A DNA stretch of 64,000 nucleotides. Origin: Minisyncoccota bacterium (GTDB lineage Bacteria; Patescibacteriota; Minisyncoccia; Phycocordibacterales; CAJBRS01). The notes under the pieces were generated by a model, which ran no database searches, was not told where the DNA came from, and saw nothing but the letters and a program-made list of their open reading frames with translations. Of the stretch, positions 1-61,244 are shown piece by piece. Numbering within the stretch: the stretch's first letter is position 1; every line of letters starts with the position of its first letter. The stretch spans positions 62,642 through 126,641 of the forward strand of contig DASRDX010000009.1 in NCBI GenBank assembly GCA_035652395.1, in the 5' to 3' direction. The translations under genes were made by a program, and so were the position numbers.

Positions 1-681
1 AATACGACACCAGGCCATGATGGGGCGGTTTTAATTGAGAACAAGAAAATCAAAACTTTCGGACTTCATCTGCCTTTGGCCGAGGATTTTCGCGGTTTTA
101 AAAATATGGGCACCCGTCATCGAGCGGCCCTAGGTTTGGCGGAAAGATCGGATGCTTTAGTCATCGTTGTTTCCGAAGAACGCGGCATTGTATCAGTGGC
201 TGAAAATGGAGCCTTGCGAACAGTGACGGACGCCCCAAGCCTGCAGGGTATCGTCCGAAATTTTATGAAAGAGAATGTGCAGGAGAATCAGAGTTTTTGG
301 TATTACATTTTAGTCAATAACTTTTTTATCAAAATTCTGTCAGTTCTAATTTCTTTCGCTTTGTGGGTGCTTCTCGTATTTCAGGCCAATGTCGTAACTG
401 AAAGCTTGATTATTCCTCTTGAATTCAGTCACATTCCCTCAAACCTGATCGTTTCAAAAGTAATTCCGGCAGATGTTAATCTCTCCATCAGCGGCAATTC
501 ATCGGATCTCCATAATCTTAATCAGAATTCGGTGCGGATTGTAATTGACCTTACAAACGCTGCCGCCGGCACCAAGCAGGTGATCATTACCGGCGACAAT
601 ATTTCCATGCCTTCTTACATTACTTTGAACAACATTACGCCGAACAAGGTGTTGATTGGATTGCAGAAAGCGGGACCATAA
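1..681 (+). CDS. cdaA: Diadenylate cyclase (DAC domain) fused to a transmembrane segment and YbbR-like (CdaR-type) domain; 5' end lies outside the window
   Basis: Frame 1 is open from base 1. Translation HDGAVLIENKKIKTFGLHLPLAEDF...GTRHRAALGLAERSDALVIVVSEERGIVSVAENG matches the DAC signature (DGA, GTRHRAA, VVSEE-G). A hydrophobic helix and a beta-rich segment resembling a YbbR repeat follow. Confidence 0.75.
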   Translation, partial: NTTPGHDGAVLIENKKIKTFGLHLPLAEDFRGFKNMGTRHRAALGLAERSDALVIVVSEERGIVSVAENGALRTVTDAPSLQGIVRNFMKENVQENQSFWYYILVNNFFIKILSVLISFALWVLLVFQANVVTESLIIPLEFSHIPSNLIVSKVIPADVNLSISGNSSDLHNLNQNSVRIVIDLTNAAAGTKQVIITGDNISMPSYITLNNITPNKVLIGLQKAGP

Positions 682-790
682 AGAGACACTCCGATAAATT
701 TACTCTTTTAAAAGTCCTCGGATCTCCCGCTCCGTCATTTAAGGTGGTCCAGACTATTTAAAAGAGTAAATTTATCTTCGTTTAGGTGGG
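682..790. repeat. Conserved structured intergenic element, copy A (24-bp near-perfect stem 693-716/752-776 around a conserved 35-nt core)
   Basis: About 75% identical to 31273-31375. The core CTCGGATCTCCCGCTCCGTCATTTAAGGTGGTCCAGAC is conserved. The stem arms differ between copies but stay complementary. Both copies start directly after a plus-strand stop codon. Confidence 0.55.
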
Positions 791-798
791 AATCAAAT

Positions 799-1983
799 CT
801 ATTTTGTGTCTTTCAAAAGAAAGGCGTAACGCAAACCTACCAGCATGATTAAGCCAAGAACTAGAAAGACATACTGAAAATCAAAGAAAACTAACACAAG
901 TGAAGCAATAGCAGGTACAAAAATATACGGTAGATTTTTAGTCATACGAAAGAGGCCGATTAGATGAATGTTGGCGACACTGACCTGTTTGAAGAAATAA
1001 GATTCAGCCGATATTTCAATGAAGCTCGCCCCAATACGGGTAACAAATAAGAGGATGGTCCAGATGAGGAAATTAGCTTGACTGATGTAGGGAATCAGAA
1101 TGGTAGAGATAGCCACAATGATAAAACCCATAATCAGAATTTCTTGCTCGCCGTATTTTCTATCTTCGAGCCGCCCAAGCGGAATCTGGAAGAGGATAAA
1201 AGGCAGCAACATAATGCTGAACATTATGCCAATCTGCGGCCAGCTGAAACCAACATACTGGTGAAGATAAATAGGCATGTAAATACTCATCCAGGCGTAG
1301 AAGAAGTTCAGCAAAAAGTTATCGAATAATATATCGTAGACATTCGGATTATCCGTTAACTCCCGAGCTAGATTTTTGGAATTGGTTTCGTGATACACCT
1401 GATCCTTAAATTTGCGGAAATTTGCCGAGATAACATATAGAAGAGGAATGAGAAAGGCTGCACCGGCCAGATAGACTTTCCAGTATTCTGAATTAGTTAA
1501 AATCAGGCCGGCCACAAAAGGCACGACAATTGGCGGCAAATTAGTCATGGTCAGAAATATGCCGCGAATATTGCCGGTCTCTTCGTTACGAGAATAATTT
1601 TCCAGAAAAATGTCCAGATTAAAAATTAAGATTGGGTTAAGGGCTTGAGAAATAATGAACATGACCGCTATTAGATAAATATTTTGCCCATAGGCTAGCC
1701 CAATTAAACACAGAGCTTCAAGGAGAATTAAACCGATCATCAAGCGATAATTGCCGGTTCGGTTGAGAATCTTACCGATATTAAGAAAGATAAAAAGATT
1801 GGCGAAAGCGCCCAGACTATAAAGTAATCCCACCAGAGCTGTACTGCCGAAGTAGCTGACTAAATAAGCGGAATTAATGAAGTAAATAAAAAAGAAGTGA
1901 ATGGAGTAGAGGAGAGCGGAGACATAGATAAGCATGAAGATGCGAATGGTTTTGGGTTGATATACAACAGGTTCTTGGTCCAT
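799..1983 (-). CDS. MFS-type transporter (about 12 predicted TM helices)
   Basis: 394-aa ORF that is hydrophobic throughout, with repeated helix-loop pattern and charged loops (GRLEDRK) typical of major facilitator proteins. Confidence 0.65.
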   Translation of the reverse strand: MDQEPVVYQPKTIRIFMLIYVSALLYSIHFFFIYFINSAYLVSYFGSTALVGLLYSLGAFANLFIFLNIGKILNRTGNYRLMIGLILLEALCLIGLAYGQNIYLIAVMFIISQALNPILIFNLDIFLENYSRNEETGNIRGIFLTMTNLPPIVVPFVAGLILTNSEYWKVYLAGAAFLIPLLYVISANFRKFKDQVYHETNSKNLARELTDNPNVYDILFDNFLLNFFYAWMSIYMPIYLHQYVGFSWPQIGIMFSIMLLPFILFQIPLGRLEDRKYGEQEILIMGFIIVAISTILIPYISQANFLIWTILLFVTRIGASFIEISAESYFFKQVSVANIHLIGLFRMTKNLPYIFVPAIASLVLVFFDFQYVFLVLGLIMLVGLRYAFLLKDTK

Positions 1984-1996
1984 GAAATTATTTTAA

Positions 1997-2082
1997 CACG
2001 CCAGAGCTCTCACTTTGTTTGAGACCGCTCCAGGGGCGCTTGCCCGAGTCTTAGTCTCAAACAAAGTGAGAGCTCTGGCGTG
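1997..2082. repeat. Perfect 29-bp inverted repeat (arms 1997-2025 and 2054-2082, 28-nt spacer) between RNase J stop and MFS start
   Basis: CACGCCAGAGCTCTCACTTTGTTTGAGAC ... GTCTCAAACAAAGTGAGAGCTCTGGCGTG read directly. It sits 13 nt upstream of the MFS ATG on the minus strand. No clear U-tract follows on either strand. Confidence 0.6.
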
Positions 2083-6748: not shown

Positions 6749-8401
6749 ATGGCCAAAAGAATTATATACAATGAGGAAGCTCGAAAACTTTTAAAAAATG
6801 GCGTTGATGCAGTAGCTAACGCCGTCAAAATTACTATTGGCCCGCGTGGCCGTAATGTGGTGTTGGACAAAGGTTACGGAGCGCCAACTATTACTAATGA
6901 TGGGGTTTCAATCGCCAAGGAGATCACTTTGGAAGATAAATTTGAAAACATGGGGGCGGAGATTATTAAAGAAGTGGCTACTAAAACTAACGAAACAGCC
7001 GGAGACGGTACCACCACTTCAGTTATTTTGGCCCAGTCTATTATTAATGAAGGAATGAGGCATACCACCATGGGAGTAAATGCCATGGCTCTTCGCTCCG
7101 GTATTGAGAAGGCGACTGCCGATGTGGTTAAGGCCCTCCAAAGCATTGCCAAACCGATTAAAAATAAGGAGGAAATCAGACAAGTTGCCACTATTTCCGC
7201 CGAATCAGCTGAAATTGGCAAGTACATTGCCGACACTATTGATAAGGTAGGGAAGGACGGAGTGGTAACGGTGGAAGAATCTCAGACTATTGGTATCGAT
7301 TCGGAAGTGGTGGAAGGTTTGGAATTTGATAAAGGTTATGTTTCGCCGTACCTCATCACTAATACCGAAAGAATGGAGGCGGAATATCGGGATCCAGCCA
7401 TTTTAATTACTGACAAGAAAATTTCTACGGTTAAGGAAATTTTACCGCTTCTCGAAAAACTGGCCCAGAGCGGTAAGAAAGATCTTGTTATTATTGCTGA
7501 AGACGTTGATGGTGAAGCACTGGCCACCTTCATTGTTAATAAACTGCGGGGCGGTTTCAATGTCTTGGCTGTTAAAGCGCCGGGGTATGGCGATCGTAAA
7601 AAAGAGCAGCTTGCTGACATTGCCATTACTGTCGGTGCGCAGGTGATTTCAGAGGAGCTTGGAGTAAAACTTGAAAATGCCGAGCTCAATATGCTTGGCC
7701 GCGCTAATCGAGTGGTAGCTACTAAAGATAATACGATTATTGTCGGCGGCAAAGGTAAGAAAGCTGATATTGAAAAGCGAGTTTCATCACTGAAGAAACA
7801 GCGCGAAGCCAGTGATTCCAGTTTTGATAAAGAGAAGCTCGAAGAGAGAATTGCCAAACTTTCCGGCGGGGTGGCTGTTATTCGAGTGGGGGCGGCCACG
7901 GAGACGGAAATGAAATATTTGAAATTGAAAATTGAAGATGCCGTCAACGCCACCAAAGCGGCCATCGCTGAAGGAATTGTGGCCGGAGGTGGAAGCGCTT
8001 TGGTGCGTGTGGCCGAGATGATTGGTCGCGGCCACAAAACCAACAGAGCGGCCGCGGCCTCAAACGCCGAAGCCGATCTAGGCTACAGCATTGTTATCCG
8101 AGCTCTCGAGGAGCCGCTTCGACAAATTGCTCTAAACTCTGGCAAGGACGACGGCTCGGTGATCGTGGAAAAAGTAAAAAGCGGCAAAGGTAATGCCGGC
8201 TACGATGCCATGAAGGATGAAATCGTGACCGATATGATAGCGGCCGGAATTATTGATCCGGTAAAGGTGACTCGAAGCGGTATTCAGAATGCCGCCAGTG
8301 CTGCCGCCATTCTCTTAACTACGGAAGTGGCCATAGCTGATCTGCCGGAAGAGAAGAAACCTGCCGCAGGGATGGGCGAGATGGGAGGAATGGGATACTA
8401 A
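6749..8401 (+). CDS. groEL: Chaperonin GroEL
   Basis: MAKRIIYNEEARKLLKNGVDAVANAVKITIGPRGRNVVL...AEGIVAGGG..., with a C-terminal GGMGY tail. Confidence 0.97.
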   Translation: MAKRIIYNEEARKLLKNGVDAVANAVKITIGPRGRNVVLDKGYGAPTITNDGVSIAKEITLEDKFENMGAEIIKEVATKTNETAGDGTTTSVILAQSIINEGMRHTTMGVNAMALRSGIEKATADVVKALQSIAKPIKNKEEIRQVATISAESAEIGKYIADTIDKVGKDGVVTVEESQTIGIDSEVVEGLEFDKGYVSPYLITNTERMEAEYRDPAILITDKKISTVKEILPLLEKLAQSGKKDLVIIAEDVDGEALATFIVNKLRGGFNVLAVKAPGYGDRKKEQLADIAITVGAQVISEELGVKLENAELNMLGRANRVVATKDNTIIVGGKGKKADIEKRVSSLKKQREASDSSFDKEKLEERIAKLSGGVAVIRVGAATETEMKYLKLKIEDAVNATKAAIAEGIVAGGGSALVRVAEMIGRGHKTNRAAAASNAEADLGYSIVIRALEEPLRQIALNSGKDDGSVIVEKVKSGKGNAGYDAMKDEIVTDMIAAGIIDPVKVTRSGIQNAASAAAILLTTEVAIADLPEEKKPAAGMGEMGGMGY

Positions 8402-8417: not shown

Positions 8418-8450
8418 TTTAAAAGGGCCGCCGAAGGCGGCCCTTTTAAT
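8418..8450 (+). terminator. Intrinsic terminator after groEL
   Basis: GGGCCGCCGAAGGCGGCCC hairpin followed by TTTTAAT. Confidence 0.7.
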
Positions 8451-14617: not shown

Positions 14618-15214
14618 ATGAACATTCGAGAGCTTTTCAAGATCCTCTTGCCGCAAACCCACCTCAATCGGAGTCTTCGCATTTTGATAATTGTTAACAC
14701 TTTCATGGTTTTTGTTATTGGTCTATTTGCGCCGTTTTACGCCATTTTTGTGGTGGGGCTAGGGGGCAATATTGCTTTCGCTGGCTTTTCTTGGGCCTTG
14801 TTTTCAATAGTTTGTGGTATTTTGATTTTGCTTTTTACGCGATGGGAGCTCCAGATTAAGGAACAAGAATTGCTTCTTGCGCTCGGCTATCTTTTAAGAG
14901 GATTGGTTTTTCTTAGTTACGCTTTCATGGGAAGCATGTTTCAACTGATCATTACCCAAGTGCTTTGGGGAATAGCAGCCGCTATCGGCACTCCAGCTTT
15001 TGATGCCGTTTATCAAACTCACACTACCCAAGCCGAATCGATCGTACAGTGGGGCGGTTGGGAAGGCATTGCCGCCATAGCTACCGGTTTAGCCGCTTTG
15101 ATTGGAGGCATTCTTATTCAATCTTTCGGATATGCCTCCATCTTTTTATCAATGTCCATCATTTCTTTTGCTCTTGGAATTTATATTTGGCGCTTACCGA
15201 GGGAAATACTGTAG
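14618..15214 (+). CDS. Membrane protein, half-size MFS-like (about 6 TM helices)
   Basis: 198 aa, hydrophobic with MFS-like loop LPQTHLNRSLR, but only half the usual transporter length. Confidence 0.45.
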   Translation: MNIRELFKILLPQTHLNRSLRILIIVNTFMVFVIGLFAPFYAIFVVGLGGNIAFAGFSWALFSIVCGILILLFTRWELQIKEQELLLALGYLLRGLVFLSYAFMGSMFQLIITQVLWGIAAAIGTPAFDAVYQTHTTQAESIVQWGGWEGIAAIATGLAALIGGILIQSFGYASIFLSMSIISFALGIYIWRLPREIL

Positions 15215-15263: not shown

Positions 15264-15920
15264 ATGAACCTTAAACAGGAATCCTTTTTGCTTCGAAAAG
15301 TTAAGACGGATGAAGAGGGGAAAGAAGGCATTCTGAAACTCTCTTGGTTAACTAATGCGGTCCGACGAACGGTCATTGTAGAGATGGGAGAAATGACGGG
15401 CTGTGGATCCATTATTAATCGTTCTGTTATTATCTCGGGTCTTTTCGGCGATCAAATTAAAAGTGCCGTTTCCTTCCAACTTTATCTTCGGCCTATTGTT
15501 TCCCAGTTCTATCCCGAAGAGGTTAGTTCGCCGGTAGAAGTGAACTGGGGTTTTGACGAAAATCTAAAGCTTTGTCTGGTCGTCCCCGGACACCGTCCAA
15601 TCGCTCCAAGTTTTTTGGAATGTCGTCCTGATGTTGGCGAGTATCTGCTTTTGGTTAGCGGTTGCAGAGAGCCTTTGGTGCTCGAACTCTCCGAAATTAT
15701 CAAAAGTTCTTACTCCAGTTTCGCTAAAAAACTTTCATTGATGCACATAGATGTAGAATCGGGAATCCCAGCAAGCCTTCTTTATCGTATGAATGGTGAC
15801 GTAGCGGGCATAGCCATTACCTCCACCAGTGATGATAAAGTTCTGGCCATACCGGCTTATGAGGTCCTGAATTTTTATCATCACCATGCCGGTTTCTTGC
15901 GAGAAACTAAAACGGTTTGA
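15264..15920 (+). CDS. Hypothetical protein, possibly a degenerate trypsin-like fold
   Basis: Segments GCGSIINRSVIISGLF and RMNGDVAGIAITSTSDDKVLAIPAYEV resemble the positions of S1 protease motifs (GSGFVI..., GNSGGP...GINT...FAIP) but lack catalytic His and Ser. This is weak. Confidence 0.45.
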   Translation: MNLKQESFLLRKVKTDEEGKEGILKLSWLTNAVRRTVIVEMGEMTGCGSIINRSVIISGLFGDQIKSAVSFQLYLRPIVSQFYPEEVSSPVEVNWGFDENLKLCLVVPGHRPIAPSFLECRPDVGEYLLLVSGCREPLVLELSEIIKSSYSSFAKKLSLMHIDVESGIPASLLYRMNGDVAGIAITSTSDDKVLAIPAYEVLNFYHHHAGFLRETKTV

Positions 15921-20454: not shown

Positions 20455-20487
20455 AAAGAAAGGGCCGCCGTCGGCGGCCCTTTCTTT
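20455..20487. terminator. Bidirectional terminator
   Basis: AAAGAAAGGGCCGCCGTCGGCGGCCCTTTCTTTTT between convergent genes. Confidence 0.7.
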
Positions 20488-25365: not shown

Positions 25366-25396
25366 GATTAAAGGCGCCGGCAAAGCCGGCGCCTTT
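25366..25396 (+). terminator. Intrinsic terminator
   Basis: AAAGGCGCCGGCAAAGCCGGCGCCTTTAAT. Confidence 0.7.
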
Positions 25397-28530: not shown

Positions 28531-31272
28531 ATGAGCCTTTCAATCACCAAGCATGACGGTAGCCGCGAACCTTTTAATGCCGATCAAATTAATCGATCCA
28601 TTGAAAGAGCTTGTCGCGGACTGATGGATCCGATTGCGATGGTTACTCAAATTGCTACTGAAACGCGACTGACTCTTTATGATGGAATCACTACCAAAGA
28701 ACTTGATCAGGCTACCATCAATGCTTCTCTTCAAAATGTTAAAGATGACCCTTCATACGACAAGGTAGCTACTCGTATTCTTCTGAAAACCATTTATCGT
28801 GAGGTTTTGGGAGATTACGATAAGGATAGTGAAGCGGAATTAATTAAAAAACATCGCGACGGTTTCATTAACTTCATTAAAAAGGGAGTGGAAGAGGGTA
28901 AGCTCGATTCACGAATGGAAGAAAAATTTAATCTGCGTGAACTTTCCAAAACTTTAGATATTGAACGAGATGAATTATTTCAGTACGCCGGTCTTTCCAC
29001 TTTTCTCAATCGTTATGCTCTGAAGAATTTAGATCAAAGTCCGCGCGAAACGCCGCAATATTTTTTCATGCGAGTGGCCATGGGACTTTCATTCAACGAA
29101 AACAAACCAACGGAGTGGGCCAAGAAGTTTTACAACAAGATGAGCAAATTTGAATACATTGGTGGCGGTTCCACCAATCTCGGCGCCGGAACAACTCACC
29201 CGGCACTTTCAAATTGTTTCCTGATGGAAGTGCAGGACGACATGGCGCACATTGCCAAGAGTGTGGCGGATGTGATGATGCTCTCTAAAGCTTCAGGCGG
29301 CCTGGGTGTTTCCGTTTCAAAATTACGAGCGGCCGGCTCACCTCTAAAATCAAACAATGGAGTTTCCACTGGTCCTACTCCTTTTGCCAAGATTATGGAC
29401 ACGGCCATTCGGGCTATTCAGCGAGGCGGCAAGAAAAAGGGGGCTCTCTGCTTCTATTTAGAGAATTGGCACATTGATTTTCCAGAATTTATTGACTGGA
29501 AGCACAACGCCGGCGATGACTACATGAGAATGAGAACCGCCAATACGGCCGCTTATCTTTCGGATGAATTCATGAAACGAGTCAGAAAAGCCGAGATGTG
29601 GTACATGTTTGATCCGGCTGAAACGGCTGACTTGGGAGAATTATACGGAGAAGCGTTCAGCAAGCGCTACAACAAGTACGTGGAGTTGGCTGATCAGGGT
29701 AAATTAAAGATGGCCAAGAAAATGCCAGCCGTAGAACTTTATCGTAAGATGCTCGTCTCTCTGCAGACCACCGGACACCCATGGCAGATTTTTAAAGACA
29801 CCATTAATCTGCGAGCTCTCAACAACAACACCGGCACCATTCACATGTCTAATCTCTGCACGGAAATCTGTTTACCACAGGATAAGGATAATATTGCTGT
29901 CTGTAATCTGGCTTCACTTAACTTAGCCGTGCATGTCATTAATAAGGAAGTTAACTGGGGCAAATTGGAAGAGTCAGTACGATTAGCCATTCGGCAGCTT
30001 GACAACCTTATTGACATTAACGTTCTGCCGGTAGCCGAGGCGGAGCGAGCGGATAAAGAGAATCGGGCCGTCGGACTCGGAGTAATGGGCTTTGCCGATG
30101 CTCTGGAGAAAATGGGCTTGGCATATGATAGTCAGCCGGCATACGATTTTGCCGATCGAATTTTTGAATTCATTAGTTATATGGCTATTGATGAGAGCGC
30201 CCGATTGGCCGATGAGCGCGGAGCGTACAAAAACTTCGCCGGCTCCGAATGGTCAAAAGGTCACGTGCCATTCGACACTATTTCTAAAATCGAAAAAGAG
30301 AGAGGTGTTCCGGTTTCCGTCACTCTTGAGAGCAAACACAAAGGTCTTAACTGGGATATCTTGCGGGAGAAAGTTAAGAAGGGAATTAGAAACGCCACTC
30401 TGATGGCTATTGCTCCGAACGCCAATATCGGCTTAATTGCCGCTACTACGCCGGGAGTAGACCCACGTTTTGCTCAAGTTTTTTCTCGCAACAAGATTTC
30501 CGGCAAATATCTCGATATCAACCATAATCTAGTGAAGGATTTGAAGAACCTTGGGGTTTGGGAAAAGGTAAAAGATTTAATCATTGAATATCAAGGTGAC
30601 ATTTCCAACATTGCCGAGATTCCCGAACACATCAAGGCAGTTTATAAGACTTCATTTACCACTTCACCCTATGGCTTTATTGAAGTAGTAGCTCGGGCCC
30701 AGAAATGGATGGATCAGGCTATTTCGCGCAACATGTATCTGCGCACCCGTGACATTGATGAGACGATGAAGATTTATATGAGCGCTTGGGAGAAAGGATT
30801 AAAGAGTACTTACTATCTACACATGGAACCAAGACACACAGCCGAGCAAAGTACCGTCTCCGTCAATAAGTCGCAGAAGATGGGCCGGGTGGGCTTCGGC
30901 GGTCTTCGAAAGAGTACCGTAGCGGCTGCGGTGGTAGAGGAAAAGACCACCGATGAATCGGAACTTCTGGCAGACAGTGCTCCCGCTACCATGATTGTGG
31001 AACCGGTGGTTAGTCCGATTAAAGAAGAAGACATGGTTGAGCCGGTAATGGTAGCGAAGATAGAGAAAAACATCGTCGAGACTGACAAAGCCGTGAGAAC
31101 TGTTGAGAGTGTCTCGAAAACTCCTAAAGTAGAAACTTCTGACGTTGCTCCAGCCGCCGTTACTCCCGCTGATCCAATTGCTCAATCTAAAAAGCCGAAC
31201 GTTCGTTTTATCGGCGCCAAGACTTGCCCAACGGATCCGGCTGAATTAAATCAGTGCGATAGTTGTCAATAA
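28531..31272 (+). CDS. nrdA: Ribonucleotide reductase class I alpha subunit with N-terminal ATP-cone and a C-terminal low-complexity extension
   Basis: ATP-cone ITKHDGSREPFNADQINRSIERAC. NxCxE region NLCTEICL. C-terminal Cys pair CPTDPAELNQCDSCQ. About 913 aa. Confidence 0.95.
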   Translation: MSLSITKHDGSREPFNADQINRSIERACRGLMDPIAMVTQIATETRLTLYDGITTKELDQATINASLQNVKDDPSYDKVATRILLKTIYREVLGDYDKDSEAELIKKHRDGFINFIKKGVEEGKLDSRMEEKFNLRELSKTLDIERDELFQYAGLSTFLNRYALKNLDQSPRETPQYFFMRVAMGLSFNENKPTEWAKKFYNKMSKFEYIGGGSTNLGAGTTHPALSNCFLMEVQDDMAHIAKSVADVMMLSKASGGLGVSVSKLRAAGSPLKSNNGVSTGPTPFAKIMDTAIRAIQRGGKKKGALCFYLENWHIDFPEFIDWKHNAGDDYMRMRTANTAAYLSDEFMKRVRKAEMWYMFDPAETADLGELYGEAFSKRYNKYVELADQGKLKMAKKMPAVELYRKMLVSLQTTGHPWQIFKDTINLRALNNNTGTIHMSNLCTEICLPQDKDNIAVCNLASLNLAVHVINKEVNWGKLEESVRLAIRQLDNLIDINVLPVAEAERADKENRAVGLGVMGFADALEKMGLAYDSQPAYDFADRIFEFISYMAIDESARLADERGAYKNFAGSEWSKGHVPFDTISKIEKERGVPVSVTLESKHKGLNWDILREKVKKGIRNATLMAIAPNANIGLIAATTPGVDPRFAQVFSRNKISGKYLDINHNLVKDLKNLGVWEKVKDLIIEYQGDISNIAEIPEHIKAVYKTSFTTSPYGFIEVVARAQKWMDQAISRNMYLRTRDIDETMKIYMSAWEKGLKSTYYLHMEPRHTAEQSTVSVNKSQKMGRVGFGGLRKSTVAAAVVEEKTTDESELLADSAPATMIVEPVVSPIKEEDMVEPVMVAKIEKNIVETDKAVRTVESVSKTPKVETSDVAPAAVTPADPIAQSKKPNVRFIGAKTCPTDPAELNQCDSCQ

Positions 31273-31375
31273 AAGGACGCTCCACAAAATCTTATTTTAA
31301 AGGTCCTCGGATCTCCGGCTTTGTCTAATTAAGGTCGGCCAGACCATTTAAAATAAGATTTTGCTTCGCTTAAGA
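31273..31375. repeat. Conserved structured intergenic element, copy B (stem 31285-31305/31342-31363)
   Basis: Same architecture and core as 682-790. Stem arms are changed in a compensatory way (GGTC/GACC versus AGTC/GACT). Confidence 0.55.
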
Positions 31376-31385
31376 GTTCTAATAA

Positions 31386-31414
31386 TTAGAGCGCCGGCGA
31401 AGCCGGCGCTCTAC
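31386..31414 (+). terminator. Hairpin between nrdA and nrdB
   Basis: AGAGCGCCGGCGAAGCCGGCGCTCT. Confidence 0.5.
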
Positions 31415-32546: not shown

Positions 32547-32552
32547 GATTTG

Positions 32553-32962
32553 TTTCTCTTTGGATCTGTAAGCCGAATTCTGTGCGAGATAGGCGAAGTC
32601 GCTTTTCTCGTGACAATTATTTATCTGGGCCAGCTGTTACCAGCCGGCTCTAGCGGCACCCCCAGCCGTAGTTTTGAGATTTTAAAACAAAACTACGGTT
32701 GGGTACGGCCTTGCACAGGGGTAAGGATTTTGCCGTTTCACTCCCGAAATTACTTTCGGGCTTCGCCCTACAGACCATTCGCCTGTAGAGCGGCGGTTTT
32801 CTTTCGAAAACCGCCGTTTCTGTTCGCACCTCTTGGATTGCTCCAGACGGGCGTTACCCGCCACCTTTTCAAATTAATGAACTGTGTTCGGACTTTCCTC
32901 CCAATCATTTCTGACCGAGCAATTGTCCAATTCAAAGAGGCTAGAAGTATAATATAGGCCGT
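32553..32962 (-). ncRNA. rnpB: RNase P RNA, bacterial type A
   Basis: The minus strand carries GGGAGGAAAGUCCG (P4 5' strand, rc of 32889-32902), GGUAACGCC, GUGCGAACAGAAACGGCGG, and a 3' region CUGGCCCAGAUAAAUAAUUGUCACGA...CACAGAAUUCGGCUUACAG matching E. coli M1 RNA CUGGCCUAGAUGAAUGACUGUCCACGACAGAACCCGGCUUA. The region contains many nested hairpins. Exact ends are uncertain. Confidence 0.8.
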
Positions 32963-37134: not shown

Positions 37135-37500
37135 TTGTTTTTTTTCTTGTCTTTTGGTAATCTCTCAAGAGATATGAATACAATCATTCCTTTAATCAAG
37201 GTCTTTGTCTGTTTCCTTTTTCTGGGTTTTTTAGGTCTTTGGGTCTACCTCACTGTCATCGAAAGGAATATCGTACGCCGTAATTTTGCTAGGATTGAAG
37301 TCAGGACAAAAAACCTGATTATCCAGATGGGGTCTTACTGTATCCTTTATTCAGTAATCTTTGTCTTTTGGCAATGGAGCTTGCCTCAACCATGGGGAAT
37401 TCTCGCAACCATACTTGGCACTTCAATTGGTGTACGGCTTGGCTATAAAATTTTCAAATTGCGAATTCACTCAATGCGCCGGCGGCTATTTCTCGAATAG
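37135..37500 (+). CDS. Hypothetical small membrane protein
   Basis: 121 aa with three hydrophobic helices. Confidence 0.4.
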   Translation: MFFFLSFGNLSRDMNTIIPLIKVFVCFLFLGFLGLWVYLTVIERNIVRRNFARIEVRTKNLIIQMGSYCILYSVIFVFWQWSLPQPWGILATILGTSIGVRLGYKIFKLRIHSMRRRLFLE

Positions 37501-37575: not shown

Positions 37576-39405
37576 ATGGAAAATATTAGGAACTTTTCTA
37601 TCATCGCCCATATTGATCACGGCAAGTCGACGCTGGCTGATAGGATGTTGGAGATTACCCATACGATTGAGAAACGGAAGATGAAAGAACAGGTATTGGA
37701 TGATATGGAACTGGAGCGGGAAAAGGGCATTACCATTAAAATGCGGCCGGTCAGGATGGAATATAAAAATCCAGCCGACGGGCAAGCCTACGTTTTAAAT
37801 CTCATAGATACGCCTGGACATATAGATTTCTCCTATGAAGTCTCCCGAGCTCTAAAGGCGGTAGAGGGCTCTATTCTATTAGTAGACGCTACCCAGGGGG
37901 TACAAGCCCAGACTCTTACTACTTTGGGCATGGCTAGAAATTCAGGCCTGACTATTATCCCCGTTTTATCCAAAGTAGATTCGCCTTTAGCTCGTATTCC
38001 GGAAGTGAAGGAAGAAGTGGCCAAATTGTTAGATTGTCCGATTGAAAGCATTTTAGAAACCTCGGGAAAAACAGGGGAGGGGGTGGAGAAGCTTTTGGAA
38101 GAGATTGTTAAAAGAGTGCCGCCGCCAAGCACTTTTGATTCGCCGGTAAACGAAGGCGATTCAAAAGTGCGTGGCGGTCCAAAAGAGAGCTTTCGCTCCC
38201 TCGTCTTTGACTTCCAATATTCAAATCACAAAGGAGTAATCGTCTACGTTCGCGTCTTTGAAGGAAAAGTGGCAAAAGGAGAAGAATTACTTTTCCGTAT
38301 TGCCGAAGAGAAGTTTTTTGCGCTCGAGGTCGGAGTTTTTAAACCCGAAGAAGCGCCCGCGCCATCTTTAGGCGCGGGCGAAATCGGCTACATCGTCACC
38401 GGTATTAAAAAACCCGGTATTGCCTCCGTTGGAGATACTGTTACTTTACTGAAGCGGCCGGCCGAAGCTCTTCCCGGTTACGAAAGGCCCTCACCTGTAG
38501 TTTGGGCCTCCATTTACCCTGAAGATGCCGATGATTTCGACTTACTTCGACAGGCCCTTGGAAGATTGCGCCTCTCCGATTCGTCCTTTTCATACGAGGA
38601 AGAATCTTCAGGATCGCTGGGGCGCGGTTTCAGATGTGGTTTCTTGGGTTTACTTCACCTTGAAATTATTACTGAAAGATTGAAACGTGAATTTCGCTTG
38701 AAATTAATTATTGCCACCCCCTCTATCACCTACGAAATTAAATATAAAAATGGAAAAACGGCTACTATTTATTCACCCTCGCTTTTTCCCGAGCAAAATG
38801 AAATTGAAAGTATTCTCGAGCCGTGGATGAGACTGCAAATTATTTCGCCGTCTGAATACTTGGGTAAAATTACCCAACTACTCTATGAGCACGAAGCCGA
38901 TCTGGATCACTCCGAAACTTTCGGGGATAACCGAACCAACTTAACGGTGCTGATACCGCTGCGGGAACTGATGCGTAACTTTTTTGATGAATTAAAAAGC
39001 GTCTCTTCAGGCTTCGCCTCTCTTTCATATGAATTTGAGGAAATGCGACCAGCCGAAGTGGCTCGTTTGGATATTTTAGTGGCGGATGAGCCGGTGGAAG
39101 CTTTTACCCGAGTGGTTTCCACTCGGCGGGTTCAGGAGGAAGCGGAAAAAGCCGTGGAAAAACTTTACGGGGTTTTGCCGCGCCAGCTATTCGTTACTAA
39201 AATTCAAGGCAGAGCTTTAGGTAGAATCCTTTCCTCAAGAACTCTTTCGGCCTTACGCAAAGACGTTACCGGCTATCTATACGGCGGAGATATCACTCGA
39301 AAGATGAAGCTCTTGGAAAAGCAGAAGAAAGGCAAAAAGAAAATGAAGGAGCGCGGTAAAGTAAATATTCCGCACGAAACCTTCTTAAAGATGATGAAAA
39401 GTTAG
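37576..39405 (+). CDS. lepA: Elongation factor 4 (LepA)
   Basis: IRNFSIIAHIDHGKSTLADRMLE, DTPGHIDF, NKVD-like SKVD, and the LepA-specific C-terminal domain ...GGDITRKMKLLEKQKKGKKKMK. Confidence 0.92.
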   Translation: MENIRNFSIIAHIDHGKSTLADRMLEITHTIEKRKMKEQVLDDMELEREKGITIKMRPVRMEYKNPADGQAYVLNLIDTPGHIDFSYEVSRALKAVEGSILLVDATQGVQAQTLTTLGMARNSGLTIIPVLSKVDSPLARIPEVKEEVAKLLDCPIESILETSGKTGEGVEKLLEEIVKRVPPPSTFDSPVNEGDSKVRGGPKESFRSLVFDFQYSNHKGVIVYVRVFEGKVAKGEELLFRIAEEKFFALEVGVFKPEEAPAPSLGAGEIGYIVTGIKKPGIASVGDTVTLLKRPAEALPGYERPSPVVWASIYPEDADDFDLLRQALGRLRLSDSSFSYEEESSGSLGRGFRCGFLGLLHLEIITERLKREFRLKLIIATPSITYEIKYKNGKTATIYSPSLFPEQNEIESILEPWMRLQIISPSEYLGKITQLLYEHEADLDHSETFGDNRTNLTVLIPLRELMRNFFDELKSVSSGFASLSYEFEEMRPAEVARLDILVADEPVEAFTRVVSTRRVQEEAEKAVEKLYGVLPRQLFVTKIQGRALGRILSSRTLSALRKDVTGYLYGGDITRKMKLLEKQKKGKKKMKERGKVNIPHETFLKMMKS

Positions 39406-40031: not shown

Positions 40032-40102
40032 GCGAGTGTCGTATAGTGGTAATACGTCTGCTTCCCAAGCAGATAACGCGAGTTCGATTCTCGCCACTCG
40101 CA
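40032..40102 (+). tRNA. tRNA-Gly (anticodon CCC)
   Basis: GCGAGTGTCGTATAGTGGTAATACGTCTGCTTCCCAAGCAGATAACGCGAGTTCGATTCTCGCCACTCGCA, a cloverleaf with T-loop TTCGATT. Confidence 0.85.
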
Positions 40103-40139: not shown

Positions 40140-40315
40140 ATGAAATTGGTTCAATAATTCTATGGCAATAAGCCTAACACTCGAATATTCGGACTATGAG
40201 AAATGTTTTTCCCGTATCTCGCACTTTACAGAGTTCGATAATTCTATGGCACCGAGCCCCAATATACGAATATTCGGACGATGAGAGATATTTTTCTCGC
40301 CACTCGCACTAATTA
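40140..40315 (+). repeat. Two degenerate tRNA-derived repeat units (about 87 nt each) containing TAATTCTATGGCA and CGAATATTCGGAC; unit 2 ends with a 19-nt copy of the tRNA-Gly 3' end
   Basis: 40151-40195 and 40231-40280 share GTTCGATAATTCTATGGCA...CGAATATTCGGAC. 40296-40314 TCTCGCCACTCGCACTAAT is identical to 40090-40108. Confidence 0.6.
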
Positions 40316-41981: not shown

Positions 41982-42065
41982 AGTTAAATGGGAATCTAAA
42001 CGAACAACAAAGCGGCTGCCAAAGGCAGCCGCTTTGTTGTAGTATGTATGATGTCCTTCTTATCC

Positions 42066-43383: not shown

Positions 43384-43456
43384 GCCGAGGTAGCTCAGTT
43401 GGTAGAGCATTTGCCTGAAGAGCAAGGGGTCGCCGGTTCGAGCCCGGCCCTCGGCA
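43384..43456 (+). tRNA. tRNA-Phe (anticodon GAA)
   Basis: GCCGAGGTAGCTCAGTTGGTAGAGCATTTGCCTGAAGAGCAAGGGGTCGCCGGTTCGAGCCCGGCCCTCGGCA. Confidence 0.9.
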
Positions 43457-43500
43457 CTAAAATAATAACCGCCAATTCTAATTGGCGGTTATTATTTTAG
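43457..43500. terminator. 21-bp perfect palindrome after tRNA-Phe (bidirectional terminator-like)
   Basis: CTAAAATAATAACCGCCAATT CT AATTGGCGGTTATTATTTTAG. Confidence 0.6.
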
Positions 43501-43607
43501 TGCCGTAAAGTCCGTATAGCTTAAGCAATTATGTGGCAAGAAGCTATTAACCTCCAAAATTCAAACAATGAGAAGTATTTTCCGGCCCTCGACTTTGTAT
43601 AATTGAT

Positions 43608-48177: not shown

Positions 48178-49364
48178 TTATTTTAAAGCCAGATTTCCAG
48201 TTGCTTTGAAATCCAAGGAAGCCGATTTTTTGTTCAAATAATTGAAATATCCGGCTACGGCAATCATGACGGCGTTATCAGTAGAGAGAGATGAATGAGG
48301 AATTAAGAGTTCGGAATCAGGAAAGTCTAAAATCAGGGCCTGAAAAGCTTCCCGAATATGTTTATTGGCAATAACTCCACCTCCAACAATTAAAGTTTTG
48401 GCGCCAAATTCTTCCAGCGCCCGTTTAGTTTTTGAGACCAAGACTTCAGTTACGGCTTCTTCGAACTCTCTGGCCAGTTGAACTTTCCAGTTTGGGTTTT
48501 CTTTTTCAGTATTTGTCATACTGCGTAGACGATAAAGAACTGCCGTTTTTAATCCGGCGAAAGAGAAATCATAATCTTTGGATTTGATCATCGGTCGCGG
48601 CAAGTTGGCAATTGAACCGCCACCGTGCCGCGCCCGTGCTTCTTCTGCCAATTTTGAAATCTCCGGCCCGCCAGGATAGGGCAGTTCCATCATTCGAGCC
48701 ACCTTGTCAAAAGCTTCGCCCACGGCATCATCTCGGGTCTGTCCGAGAATTTCGTATTTCTGCCAGTCTTTCATCAAAACCAGTTCCGTATGACCGCCGC
48801 TGATAAGAAGAGCAACTGCTGGAAATTTAAAACTCTCAACTTTTAACTTTGAATTCTCCGATTTTGTCAGATCGGATTCTAAAAGAACTGACAGAATGTG
48901 TCCTTCCATATGATTGACGGCCACCACTGGCAAATCCCAGACTATCCCTAAGACCTTGGCAAAATTGATTCCTACCCAGAGAGCCGGTTCCAAGCCCGGG
49001 CCAACAGTAACGGCGATCGCTTCAAGGTCAGGTTTTGGTAGAGCCGGAAGTGCTGCTAGAAACTGTCGCAGCAATTCCGGCTCTCTTTCTAGAATTTTTT
49101 CAATCTCTTCTTGATTGAATTCTACTTTCAACTTTTGACTTTTAACTTCTGACTGGTCAAAAATCTTCTTTAAAAGAGGGATGAGATTTTTAGCATGCTC
49201 TCTCTTGGCCATCATCGGAAACACGCCTCCATATTTTTCATGGATTTTTGTTTGAGAATTAAGAGCTTCGGCCAAGATCTTGAAATGCGGCTTCGCGCCT
49301 CCTTCCGCTTCCACAATCGCCAAAGCCGTCTCATCACAGCTAGTTTCAATACCAAGAATTTTCA
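48178..49364 (-). CDS. tsaD: tRNA N6-threonylcarbamoyladenosine synthase TsaD (Kae1/YgjD family) with an internal ~40-aa insertion
   Basis: MKILGIETSCDETALAIV and HMEGH... signatures. The true start is the ATG at 49364, because the longer six-frame ORF overlaps tRNA-Val. Confidence 0.85.
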
Positions 49365-49366
49365 TT

Positions 49367-49439
49367 GTGCGCGGTGAGGGATTCGAACCCCCGGCATCAA
49401 CAACGTCAATGTTGCGCTCTACCAACTGAGCTAACCGCG
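49367..49439 (-). tRNA. tRNA-Val (anticodon GAC)
   Basis: rc: GCGCGGTTAGCTCAGTTGGTAGAGCGCAACATTGACGTTGTTGATGCCGGGGGTTCGAATCCCTCACCGCGCA. Confidence 0.85.
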
Positions 49440-49524
49440 CCTTTTATGAAATTTACCATTTTTCGGCGATAGAGGAAAAAGTTTTACCACAGTTTGCCAC
49501 ATACCTTGGAGTATCGGGCCTTCT

Positions 49525-49598
49525 TGCCATAGAATTACTCTTCACCTCTAACATCAACCACGTCAATGTTGCGCTCTACCAATTGAGCTAATCGCCCT
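49525..49598 (-). pseudogene. Truncated tRNA-Val 5' half followed by TAATTCTATGGCA-containing sequence
   Basis: rc of 49549-49598 is GGGCGATTAGCTCAATTGGTAGAGCGCAACATTGACGTGGTTGATG, then TTAGAGGTGAAGAGTAATTCTATGGCAAGAAGGCC. There is no T-arm. Confidence 0.6.
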
Positions 49599-49643
49599 TC
49601 TTTTGAATAATAAAGTCTTCCGAGCTTTTGGGCAAGAATCTGT

Positions 49644-60638: not shown

Positions 60639-61244
60639 ATGGTCATTACCTATCACGGTTTGGAATTTTTCAAGATGCAACTGGGCGACTTAACAGTGGC
60701 TTTTAATCCGCCTTCCAAGAAATCTCCTTTTAAAGCTCCTCGATTTGGCGCTGATATTGTTTTGGTTTCCATGAACAATGTTGATATGAATGGCGCTGAG
60801 GAATTAAAACACGGAGAAAGAGTGCCGTTTATCATTTCCGGTCCGGGCGAGTATGAAGTGAAAGAAGTTTTTATTCGCGGTTTAGATATGTTGCCGGTAA
60901 CTATCTACACTTTGAATTTGGATAACATCAATCTTTGTTTCCTGGGACCTCTCGAATCGAAAGACTTGCCACCTAATATTGTGGAGGCTTTGGACGATAT
61001 TGATATTTTATTTGTGCCAATCGGGGGACACGGTGTGTTAACGCCGGCTGATGCCAATAAACTAGCAGTTAACCTTGAGCCGAAGCTAGTTATCCCGATG
61101 CATTATGTTGAACAGGACAAGAGTTCACTAAAAACTTTTCTGAAAGAAGCTGGGGAAGAGGTGAAGGCGATTGATAAGCTGACAATCAAAAAGAAAGATT
61201 TGGAAGGAAAGGAGGGTGATGTGGTGGTCTTAAGTATTGTTTAG
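60639..61244 (+). CDS. MBL-fold metal-dependent hydrolase (UPF0173-like)
   Basis: ITYHGLEFFKMQLGDLTVAFNP...ADIVLVS...LFVPIGGHGVLTPADANKL, the pattern of small Zn-dependent hydrolases. Confidence 0.6.
   Translation: MVITYHGLEFFKMQLGDLTVAFNPPSKKSPFKAPRFGADIVLVSMNNVDMNGAEELKHGERVPFIISGPGEYEVKEVFIRGLDMLPVTIYTLNLDNINLCFLGPLESKDLPPNIVEALDDIDILFVPIGGHGVLTPADANKLAVNLEPKLVIPMHYVEQDKSSLKTFLKEAGEEVKAIDKLTIKKKDLEGKEGDVVVLSIV

What the first reader, a model, noticed from the sequence alone, without database searches (positions are those of the whole stretch)
682..790. Conserved ~110-nt structured element in two copies with compensatory changes in the stem (copy A)
Copy A (682-790) and copy B (31273-31375) share a conserved core, CTCGGATCTCC(C/G)GCT..GTC..TTAAGGT.G.CCAGAC, and a conserved 3' tail, CTTCGYTTARG. 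The core is flanked by a 22-24-bp stem whose arms differ between the copies (GATAAATTTACTCTTTTAAAAGTC versus CAAAATCTTATTTTAAAGGTC) but remain complementary. Both stems have the same single-T bulge. Compensatory change like this argues for a selected secondary structure (RNA or cruciform), not a mobile element's inverted repeats.

Both copies begin within 3-10 nt of a plus-strand stop codon, after the cdaA-like gene and after nrdA. Copy B lies inside the nrdA-nrdB operon, so it could be an RNA stability or processing element, a protein-binding site, or a small repeat family.
Basis: seen in the sequence. Interest (0 to 1): 0.65.

Follow-up and report, generated by a model that had tools for sequence, protein, structure and literature searches.

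The report
Mobile hairpin element of Paceibacterota genomes
The two ~100-nt copies are real and belong to an apparently undescribed family of small hairpin-forming selfish DNA insertions in ultra-small (CPR/Paceibacterota) bacteria; they land at gene ends and sometimes in frame inside essential genes, and are not a dedicated regulatory RNA of the nrdA-nrdB operon.

Summary
Copies A (682-782) and B (31273-31370) are about 86% identical. Their 24/21-bp stems differ by 5 two-sided compensatory changes plus a symmetric 2-bp indel, with no one-sided change.

- A metagenome scan and follow-up loci gave at least 10 more members (12 in all), at about 9 independent loci.
- All share an invariant core, AAA(A/G)GTC-CTCGGATCT-CCNGC...GCNGG-CCA-GAC, inside a long outer stem whose sequence is free but almost purely Watson-Crick (1 G-U in about 216 pairs).
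- Close relatives have precise empty sites. Copy B is absent after the nrdA stop codon in the nearest genome. A 100-nt member is present or absent between genomes whose flanks are about 90% identical.
- Other members sit in frame inside RecJ (33 extra residues, antisense orientation), Dus and a surface protein.
- Intergenic copies abut stop codons.

There is no Rfam family, no plasmid or phage match, no paper found, and no transposase in the window.

Best reading: a non-autonomous mobile palindromic element, like MITEs, Rickettsia palindromic elements and REPINs, but with a conserved centre and variable arms. The transposition enzyme is unknown. Any effect on mRNA (3' hairpin, RNase III site) is inferred and secondary.

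The parts
679..681 (+). TAA stop codon of the CdaA(DAC)-YbbR gene (ORF 76-681). It abuts the 5' end of copy A, and its TA may be one copy of a TA target duplication.
682..692 (+). Copy A 5' leader AGAGACACTCC. The family motif is (TA)AA(A)G...CTCC, just 5' of the outer stem.
693..716 (+). Copy A outer stem P1, 5' arm (24 nt).
   Evidence: (I20)
717..751 (+). Copy A core: invariant CTCGGATCT (717-725), inner hairpin P2 CCCGC...GTGGT (726-748), and invariant CCA (749-751).
752..776 (+). Copy A outer stem P1, 3' arm, with one unpaired A at 756.
777..785 (+). Copy A 3' tail TTCGTT (777-782) followed by TAG (783-785). The family tail motif is CTNCGYY followed by TA.
31270..31272 (+). TAA stop codon of nrdA (28531-31272), abutting copy B.
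31273..31370 (+). Copy B, 98 nt. Leader 31273-31284; P1 5' arm 31285-31305; CTCGGATCT 31306-31314; P2 31315-31338; CCA 31339-31341; P1 3' arm 31342-31363 (unpaired A at 31346); tail CTTCGCT 31364-31370. It is absent from the orthologous site of the closest relative.
31371..31373 (+). A second TAA directly after copy B. Downstream sequence (TAAGAGTTCTAATAATT) matches the relative's post-stop sequence (TAAGAATTTAATAATT), so this is read as duplicated target TA(A).
31388..31412 (.). GC-rich terminator-like hairpin AGAGCGCCGGCGAAGCCGGCGCTCT downstream of copy B. It is not part of the element. It belongs to a separate five-member hairpin family in the window, and a counterpart exists in the relative's spacer.
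   Evidence: (D1)

Best explanation
Copies A and B are two insertions of a non-autonomous, hairpin-forming mobile DNA element, about 100 nt long, that circulates in Paceibacterota (CPR) genomes.

Anatomy. A short 5' leader (..AAAG..CTCC) is followed by a long outer stem P1. P1 has free sequence but strict Watson-Crick complementarity, and always closes with AAA(A/G)GTC/GAC(T/C)(A)TTT. Inside it is an asymmetric internal loop of invariant bases (CUCGGAUCU on the 5' side, CCA on the 3' side). Next comes a variable-length inner hairpin P2 (CCNGC...GCNGG), and then a short 3' tail (CTNCGYY).

Shown here:
- It inserts as a unit into new sites.
- It is present or absent between close relatives.
- It occurs in several unrelated loci per genome.
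- It is tolerated at gene ends, where its boundaries coincide with stop codons, and as in-frame translated insertions in conserved proteins.

Inferred:
- The invariant core presented on a DNA hairpin is the recognition site of a trans-acting enzyme. The candidates are an IS630/Tc1-like DDE transposase, if TA is duplicated, or an HUH/Y1 single-strand transposase of the IS200/IS605-RAYT type, given the sub-terminal hairpin with asymmetric single-stranded ends.
- The arms stay complementary either because only hairpin-competent copies propagate, or through templated correction within the palindrome.
- Once inserted after cdaA and between nrdA and nrdB, the element is co-transcribed. It forms a 21-24-bp RNA helix of about -35 kcal/mol. 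This could act as a 3' stabiliser or an RNase III substrate, as a by-product rather than its reason for existing.
For: (1) Family.
- The pattern AAARGTCCTCGGATCTCCNGC hit 7 metagenome contigs, and all 7 have the same architecture.
- More members came from related contigs.
- The family model R3 scores the 12 listed members at 72-103 bits. Every other hit scores 33 bits or less, and those are the members' own reverse strands or generic hairpins. Identical copies of the Dus insertion in L054-L056 score 71.9 bits.

(2) Insertion polymorphism.
- The window reads 'GTCAATAA[98 nt]TAAGAGTTCTAATAATT'. The closest relative (NrdA 85% identical) reads 'GTCAATAA|GAATTTAATAATT'.
- L050 and L053 carry exactly 100 nt that L051 and L052 lack. 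The flanks are 91% and 87.5% identical.

(3) Coding insertions.
- RecJ in L041 has 36 residues where the solved RecJ 8y30 has 3, right after the DHH motif, with the element antisense.
- Dus in L040 (also held as L054-L056) carries QKSSDLLPPAGQTF in frame.
- A large surface-type protein in L035 also carries an in-frame copy.
- Every coding insertion found (three) is in frame and free of stop codons, which argues for translation rather than splicing.

(4) Stems.
- P1 is 92% paired. 17 of 24 pairs change on both sides, and only 1 G-U pair occurs.
- The third pair of P2 covaries T-A / C-G / G-C (read).

(5) Orientation relative to flanking genes varies. The element is sense after cdaA, nrdA and dsbA, but antisense between ruvX and a tRNA-binding gene in L037.

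(6) Patchy distribution.
- There are 2 copies in the 64-kb window and 2 in the 21 kb of L050.
- There are none in about 500 kb of 28 other Paceibacterota nrdA loci, or in the closest relatives' syntenic regions.

(7) Not a known RNA. No Rfam match even at E up to 10 for the window copy, or up to 1 for the metagenome members.
Against: - No transposase, recombinase, HUH or reverse-transcriptase domain was found in about 50 window ORFs or in the annotated neighbourhoods of other members. No autonomous partner was identified.
- The termini are not inverted repeats of each other, which is unlike classical MITEs.
- Target duplication is ambiguous. TA(A) fits copy B exactly, but the L050/L051 comparison allows only a 1-nt duplication.
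- The strong conservation of the core across genomes of 44-58% GC, and of a second hairpin family's loop at the same RNase J-proximal spacer in two genomes with unrelated stems, would also fit a host function.
- Only about 9 independent loci were seen, so copy numbers per genome are unknown.
- No expression data exist.
Confidence: 0.72

Rival explanations
1. A cis-acting structured RNA (or RNA motif bound by a protein) selected for host function. It would be a 3'-UTR or intercistronic stabiliser, an RNase III/RNase J processing site, or an unconventional terminator. It would have spread among genes because it is useful, with the invariant internal-loop bases as the protein- or ligand-binding site.
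For: - Very stable predicted RNA hairpins, z = -3.9 and -5.3.
- Invariant unpaired nucleotides in an asymmetric internal loop, plus covarying P1 and P2.
- Five of the intergenic loci have the element directly after the stop codon of a co-oriented gene.
- Copy A fills a convergent-gene spacer that holds a plain terminator hairpin in relative L033.
- Correia and ERIC elements are known to affect mRNA through RNase III or RNase E (PMC10969869).
Against: - It is absent from the same spacers in the nearest relatives.
- It occurs antisense to the flanking genes (L037) and antisense inside RecJ.
- Coding insertions are in frame and translated.
- Stems are Watson-Crick only, with 1 G-U against about 18 other mismatches, whereas RNA-selected helices normally tolerate G-U.
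- There is no U-tract and no terminator call.
- A conventional GC hairpin still follows copy B.
- There is no Rfam family.
Confidence: 0.17
2. A recent local duplication within this genome, with no wider family and no function.
For: Only two copies occur in the window, and the first two collection scans found nothing.
Against: - At least ten further members occur in other genomes and samples, with entirely different stems.
- The two window copies are about 14-17% diverged, with every stem change compensated.
Confidence: 0.01
3. An integron attC-like recombination site. This would be a structure-specific, sequence-variable hairpin with extrahelical bases, placed at the 3' end of a cassette ORF.
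For: - The stem sequence is variable while the structure is conserved.
- There is a single unpaired base in the stem, and the position is directly after ORFs.
Against: - The outermost flanks do not pair, so there are no R''/R' core sites (RYYYAAC...GTTRRRY).
- The neighbours are housekeeping genes in conserved synteny, not cassettes.
- No integrase was found in the window.
- The element occurs inside coding sequences.
- The unpaired base is missing in 5 of 12 members.
Confidence: 0.02

Closest known systems
Rickettsia palindromic elements (RPEs)
   Same: - Both are short palindromic repeats with no ORF of their own, living in reduced genomes of host-dependent bacteria.
- Both are found in intergenic DNA and as in-frame, translated insertions in unrelated housekeeping genes.
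- No transposase is known for either (RPE facts from PMC10969869; in-frame RecJ, Dus and surface-protein insertions here).
   Different: - There is no sequence relation, and the phylum is different (Paceibacterota).
- This element is about 100 nt, against about 150 bp for RPEs.
- This family is defined by an invariant central core with hypervariable arms.
- Intergenic copies abut stop codons.
- Only 3 coding insertions have been seen so far, against dozens in Rickettsia.
REPINs (REP doublets forming hairpins) mobilised by RAYT (IS200/IS605-type Y1 transposases)
   Same: - Both are about 100-nt hairpin-forming non-autonomous elements in extragenic space.
- Compensatory changes across the hairpin are common in REPINs (PMC3116915).
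- The proposed REPIN intermediate is a hairpin with an asymmetric single-stranded tail. The leader and tail here are likewise unpaired and unequal (11-14 nt against 6-7 nt or more).
   Different: - In REPINs the conserved parts are the two inverted REP 16-mers in the arms, and the spacer is variable. Here the arms are variable and the centre is conserved.
- There is no GTAG-type REP motif.
- No RAYT or TnpA gene was found.
- REPINs are not reported in frame in genes.
Correia elements (CREE) and other IS630/Tc1-type TA-duplicating MITEs
   Same: - Both are about 100-150-bp elements that fold into long hairpins in mRNA.
- Correia transcripts are cut by RNase III (PMC10969869). TA target duplication of Correia elements is from my own knowledge.
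- Here TA flanks both ends in about 10 of 12 copies, and copy B fits a TA(A) duplication exactly.
   Different: - The termini here are not inverted repeats, because the hairpin is sub-terminal.
- One empty-site comparison supports only a 1-nt duplication.
- No promoter-like sites were found in the element itself; the one weak hit spans the nrdA end and the start of copy B.
- Arms are not conserved between copies.
Integron attC sites
   Same: Both are recognised (or maintained) as a folded structure with variable sequence, and both lie at the 3' ends of ORFs.
   Different: There is no R/L box pairing of the ends, no integrase, no cassette context, and the core sequence is conserved (see the membership test).

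Membership tests
MITE (classical, DDE-transposase derived) | Terminal inverted repeats at the very ends of the element | tested here: not met
   The leader (for example AAGGACGCTCCA) and the reverse complement of the tail (AGCGAAG) do not match. The inverted repeat (P1) starts 11-14 nt in from the 5' end and 6-7 nt in from the 3' end.
MITE (classical, DDE-transposase derived) | Target-site duplication of fixed length | tested here: inconclusive
   Copy B has TAA...TAA against a single TAA in relative L003. Copy A has TAA...TAG. L050 against the empty site in L051 allows only a 1-nt (T) duplication. TA is present on both flanks in about 10 of 12 copies, but the boundaries were chosen flexibly.
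MITE (classical, DDE-transposase derived) | Small, non-coding, multi-copy, with presence/absence polymorphism | tested here: met
   The element is 98-101 nt with no ORF. There are 2 copies in the window and 2 in L050, and two independent filled/empty comparisons.
MITE (classical, DDE-transposase derived) | A related autonomous IS sharing the ends | tested here: not met
   None was found in the window or in the fetched loci (Pfam columns). Complete genomes could not be searched.
Rickettsia palindromic element-like (in-frame palindromic insertions) | Palindromic repeat inserted in frame in unrelated protein-coding genes, without disrupting them | tested here: met
   RecJ has about 33 extra residues between the DHH motif and LPxA, compared with PDB 8y30. 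Dus carries extra residues. The L035 ORF is continuous through the element. All six frames of the minimal core are open (translation by hand in this analysis, partly seen).
Rickettsia palindromic element-like (in-frame palindromic insertions) | Sequence homology to RPE-1 to RPE-10 | not tested
The host phylum and the core motif differ, so homology is not expected.
REPIN / RAYT system | Two inverted, conserved REP sequences (with a 5' GTAG-type motif) forming the arms | tested here: not met
   The arms are the variable part: 17 of 24 pairs change between members. The conserved block is central.
REPIN / RAYT system | Cognate RAYT (Y1 HUH transposase) gene in the genome | not testable with these tools
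   No Y1_Tnp hit was found in the window ORFs. The rest of the 462-kb source contig, and the other genomes, could not be retrieved.
Integron attC | R''-L''...L'-R' organisation, with R' = GTTRRRY pairing with R'' = RYYYAAC | tested here: not met
   The flanks outside P1 are not complementary, and the tail is CTTCGYTTA.
Integron attC | Adjacent intI integrase and cassette array | tested here: not met
   The window has housekeeping synteny and no integrase.
Intrinsic (Rho-independent) terminator | GC-rich stem with a short loop followed by a U-tract | tested here: not met
   The stem is AT-rich and 21-24 bp, with a 35-nt interior and no T-run. The scan found 0 terminator-like sites at either copy.
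Any Rfam RNA family (release 15) | Covariance-model score at or above the gathering threshold | tested here: not met
   There is no hit at gathering score. At E up to 10 only miRNA-like hairpin noise appears, at 18 bits or less. None was found in 7 metagenome members.

The most novel reading that the evidence does not exclude
A previously undescribed class of bacterial mobile DNA in the Candidate Phyla Radiation. These would be hairpin elements whose identity lies in an invariant internal-loop core (CUCGGAUCU / CCA around a small inner hairpin), not in their termini, with arms that evolve freely under strict Watson-Crick complementarity. They would integrate at TA/TAA, preferentially in stop codons, and regenerate a stop at both junctions (5' TA+A; 3' C/T+TA on the other strand). 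They can persist translated inside essential genes. This would imply an unknown structure-specific, probably single-strand, transposition enzyme in CPR bacteria. At least one sister family with a different core appears to exist (window 1997-2082 and L031 11210-11297).
Probability: 0.4. Interest if true: 0.7.

Novelty: new variant of a known kind. Interest (0 to 1): 0.6.

Why it matters
CPR/Patescibacteria genomes are regarded as streamlined and poor in repeats and transposons. A family of selfish hairpin insertions that colonises gene ends and even essential genes (recJ, dus) in these roughly 0.5-Mb genomes would be a counterpart of the Rickettsia palindromic elements in a second, unrelated lineage of host-dependent bacteria.

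It offers four things:
- Markers for strain-level population genetics in metagenomes, through presence/absence sites.
- A source of protein-sequence novelty.
- A handle for finding an unknown structure-specific transposase.
- A caution for annotators: such hairpins after stop codons look like regulatory RNAs and can create spurious covariation-supported 'RNA motifs'.

Tried and rejected
Searches that found nothing:
- Strict two-block DNA patterns in genome contigs and metagenome contigs gave 0 hits. The source genome is not in those collections, and the TTAAGGT block turned out to be subfamily-specific.
- Exact look-up of the window's NrdA, to reach the rest of the 462-kb source contig, was not on record.
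- Viral contig scans with either half of the core gave only chance hits without stems.
- blastn of the minimal core against plasmids and phages gave only chance hits.
- A six-frame peptide query for in-frame insertions in the 5.8-billion-protein index found 2 word-sharing candidates, and none scored. An earlier attempt failed on a parameter error.
- Literature searches for the motif string, for 'palindromic element' plus CPR, and for MITE plus CPR terms found nothing relevant.

Tool error:
- Model R1 was built with a structure shifted by one column and was discarded.

Leads checked and dismissed:
- A possible third copy at 37227-37257 and a leader-like hit at 60714-60744 both lie inside coding ORFs and are chance matches.
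- The L033 hairpin at the orthologous cdaA/MFS spacer resembles the leader and tail at 25.8 bits. The 'leader' there is the MFS C-terminal coding sequence, so it is treated as chance.
- Read-through or an extended ORF after the TAA stops: the short conceptual peptides are similar (RDTPINLLF against KDAPQNLIL), but Paceibacterota are not known to recode TAA, and the similarity follows from DNA identity.
- An anti-Shine-Dalgarno mimic (GGAUCUCC against the 16S 3' end GGAUCACCUCC) and a tRNA-minihelix-plus-CCA idea were both considered from memory only, have no supporting test, and were not pursued.
- GC skew gave no usable strand signal for a replication-strand bias test.

Full report
**1. What is in the window**

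Copy A occupies 682-782 and copy B 31273-31370, both on the + strand.
- Copy A follows the TAA stop (679-681) of a truncated ORF with DAC and YbbR domains, a CdaA-type protein. It fills almost the whole spacer to the convergent MFS gene, whose stop is at 799-801.
- Copy B follows the TAA stop (31270-31272) of nrdA (913 aa). A GC-rich hairpin (31388-31412) comes next, then nrdB at 31497.
- The source is a Candidatus Paceibacterota MAG. A 100% identical NrdA is named that way, on a 462-kb contig.

**2. Checking the observation**

- The copies align with 86% identity.
- A covariance model finds them at 141 and 127 bits. The next hit is the reverse strand of copy A at 34 bits.
- On the correct register, the 24-pair stem has 18 invariant pairs and 5 pairs changed on both sides. 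A 2-bp deletion is mirrored in both arms. No change is one-sided and there is no G-U pair.
- Shifting partners by one column collapses pairing to about 51-53%. An off-by-one structure was discarded.
- Predicted RNA folds are -35.2 kcal/mol (z = -3.9) and -37.3 kcal/mol (z = -5.3).
- The unpaired stem base is an A, not a T.

**3. Not a conserved operon element**

- The two nearest genomes lack it between nrdA and nrdB. L001 (NrdA 85% identical) has a 541-nt spacer with an antisense ORF. L002 (81%) has a 93-nt spacer.
- The downstream flank of copy B (TAAGAGTTCTAATAATT) matches the sequence that directly follows the nrdA stop in L003 (TAAGAATTTAATAATT). Copy B is therefore a clean 98-nt insertion with TAA on both sides.
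- None of 28 Paceibacterota nrdA loci (500 kb) has a member. Most have nrdA-nrdB spacers of only 25-60 nt.

**4. The family**

- Two strict pattern scans failed. A looser 5'-half pattern then returned 7 metagenome contigs, all with the same layout.
- The layout is a long outer stem of unrelated sequence, closing with AAAAGTC. Then come CTCGGATCT, an inner hairpin CCNGC...GCNGG (from the minimal CCTGCCCCCGGCAGG up to about 30 nt), CCA, and GAC(T)(A)TTTT.
- Related contigs added L050 (two copies), L053, and identical copies in L054-L056.
- L036 belongs to a 90% protein cluster named Candidatus Paceibacterota.
- On a 10-member alignment, P1 is 92% paired. 17 of 24 pairs change on both sides (62 cells), and 0 of 500 shuffles reach this. 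Only one G-U pair occurs. That alignment was fitted to the model, so it leans towards the structure. However, each sequence is self-complementary on inspection.
- The third pair of P2 covaries T-A / C-G / G-C (read).
- The family model R3 separates members (72-103 bits) from everything else (33 bits or less).

**5. Evidence that it moves**

(a) The copy B empty site described above.

(b) L050 and L053 carry exactly 100 nt between CAAGTT and TACTCATC that L051 and L052 lack. The flanks are 91% and 87.5% identical.
- That junction lies inside the TAA stop (on the minus strand) of the convergent PD-(D/E)XK gene.
- After insertion, the element's last C plus TA recreates a TAG stop.

(c) In-frame coding insertions.
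- RecJ (L041) has 36 residues where the solved RecJ 8y30 has 3, immediately after the DHH motif. The element there is antisense.
- Dus (L040, also L054-L056) has the element in sense orientation, translated as ...QKSSDLLPPAGQTF....
- L035 has a large surface-type ORF that runs straight through the element.
- Every coding case found (three) is in frame and stop-free, which argues that they are translated, not spliced.

(d) Orientation relative to neighbours is not fixed. In L037 the element is antisense between ruvX and a tRNA-binding-domain gene. In L039 its 3' end abuts the stop of ndk on the other strand.

**6. Ends and target**

- Intergenic copies abut stop codons.
  - At the 5' end, TAA is the stop of cdaA and of nrdA (window), DUF1360 (L050b) and dsbA (L036). 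In L038 the boundary stop is TAG, the stop of a penicillin-binding protein.
  - At the 3' end, C/T+TA is the stop on the opposite strand of PD-(D/E)XK (L050a, L053), gmad2 (L050b), ruvX (L037) and ndk (L039).
- TA flanks both ends in about 10 of 12 copies. That fits a TA duplication, in which an element beginning with A and ending in C/T regenerates a stop at either junction.
- However, L050 against L051 supports only a 1-nt duplication. In addition, I chose the boundaries with some freedom. The target rule is therefore a hypothesis.
- The leader and tail are not inverted repeats of each other.

**7. Enzyme**

- No transposase, recombinase, HUH or reverse-transcriptase domain was found in about 50 window ORFs, or in the annotated neighbourhoods.
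- The rest of the source contig was unreachable. The mobilising activity is unknown.
- Two models remain:
  - An IS630/Tc1-like DDE enzyme, supported by the TA flanks.
  - An HUH/Y1 single-strand transposase, supported by the sub-terminal hairpin, the asymmetric single-stranded ends, and the weak or absent duplication.
- The Watson-Crick-only arms indicate constraint at the DNA level or on both strands. The alternative is templated correction within the palindrome. The last point is an inference from the general literature on quasipalindrome template switching, cited from my own knowledge.

**8. Consequence for the host (inferred)**

- Both window copies are almost certainly co-transcribed with cdaA and with nrdA.
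- A 21-24-bp helix is long enough for RNase III. By analogy with Correia and ERIC elements (PMC10969869), it could alter mRNA stability or uncouple nrdA from nrdB.
- No terminator-like site and no promoter-like site within the element itself were found.

**9. Comparison with known elements**

- The closest analogues are Rickettsia palindromic elements (in-frame palindromic insertions; PMC10969869), REPINs (hairpin replicators with compensatory changes; PMC3116915) and Correia-type MITEs.
- It fails the defining tests for classical MITEs (terminal inverted repeats), REPINs (conserved arms), attC sites, intrinsic terminators, and any Rfam family.
- It has no match in plasmid or phage databases.
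- No paper was found on the motif or on MITE-like repeats in CPR bacteria. The 2024 MITE review does not mention Patescibacteria.

**10. Verdict**

This is a real, previously uncatalogued (as far as I could search) family of small mobile hairpin elements in Paceibacterota. I rate it a new variant of a known kind, because the centre is conserved and the arms are free, the reverse of the usual pattern. Interest is moderate to high. The mechanism and genome-wide abundance are still open.

Noticed in passing
window 1997-2082; L031 11210-11297: A second hairpin element: a 29-bp perfect stem with a 28-nt loop, between the RNase J stop and the MFS start. L031 has a hairpin with an unrelated stem but a similar loop (GGG.CGCT.G.CC.AGTCTTA) in its RNase J-proximal spacer. 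L033 has only 12 nt there. This looks like a sister family with the same 'conserved centre, free arms' logic.
   Followed up: partly
window 799-1983 vs L031 10001-11185 and L033 10001-11179: The MFS transporter gene next to copy A is inverted in the closest relative (L031), relative to the window and to L033. In the window it is bracketed by the two hairpin elements.
   Followed up: partly
window 38122-38177 (inside lepA 37576-39405): A palindrome with 23-nt arms (91% complementary) coincides with a 9-residue in-frame insertion in LepA, relative to the two closest relatives. It may be another small palindromic insertion in a coding gene.
   Followed up: partly
window 49040-49084 (inside tsaD 48178-49425): A palindrome with 17-nt arms lies inside TsaD. 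The Pfam match for TsaD is split into two stretches and the protein is long (415 aa), so this is a possible in-frame insertion.
   Followed up: no
window 43452-43505: A perfect 26-bp palindrome with a 2-nt loop starts inside the 3' end of the tRNA at 43384-43456.
   Followed up: no
window 49395-49450 and 49552-49607; 40173-40225 and 40258-40310: An 88% identical 56-nt direct repeat duplicates part of the tRNA at 49368-49440 (minus strand). A 79% identical 53-nt direct repeat lies downstream of the tRNA at 40032-40102. These may be integration scars or tRNA pseudogenes.
   Followed up: no
window 14618-15214 and 15264-15920: A 198-aa ORF matches only the first half of the MFS_1 profile. It is followed by a 218-aa ORF with no Pfam hit. 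This may be a split or interrupted transporter gene.
   Followed up: no
window 8422-8446, 20459-20483, 25371-25395, 31388-31412, 42010-42034: A family of GC-rich perfect hairpins (AAAGGGCCGCCGAAGGCGGCCCTTT type) flanked by A and T runs. They are probably bidirectional terminators.
   Followed up: no
L018 12588-12731; L012 about 7390-7470; L031 11330-11560: Other long palindromic inserts occur in distant Paceibacterota. L018's and L012's lie directly after nrdA. L018's shares the AAAAGTC...GAGTCTTTT stem base but has a different core (21.5 bits with R3). L031's lies in the MFS-RNase J spacer. Such hairpin inserts seem common in this phylum.
   Followed up: partly
L001/L003 12729-13139: In the closest relative, the nrdA-nrdB spacer carries a 136-aa antisense ORF with no Pfam domain, in place of the element.
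   Followed up: no
L036 1581-1699 vs L050 10768-10878 and L050 1156-1273: Orthologous copies in L036 and L050 have identical outer stems but a replaced inner-hairpin apex. The L036 apex (GAGCCATTAAGGCTC) instead matches the second, non-orthologous copy in L050. This hints at exchange or conversion between copies.
   Followed up: partly
window 32553-32938 (-): The RNase P RNA (bacterial class A, 142.7 bits) lies immediately downstream of nrdB on the opposite strand. The mechanical ORF at 32550-32957 overlapping it is spurious.
   Followed up: yes
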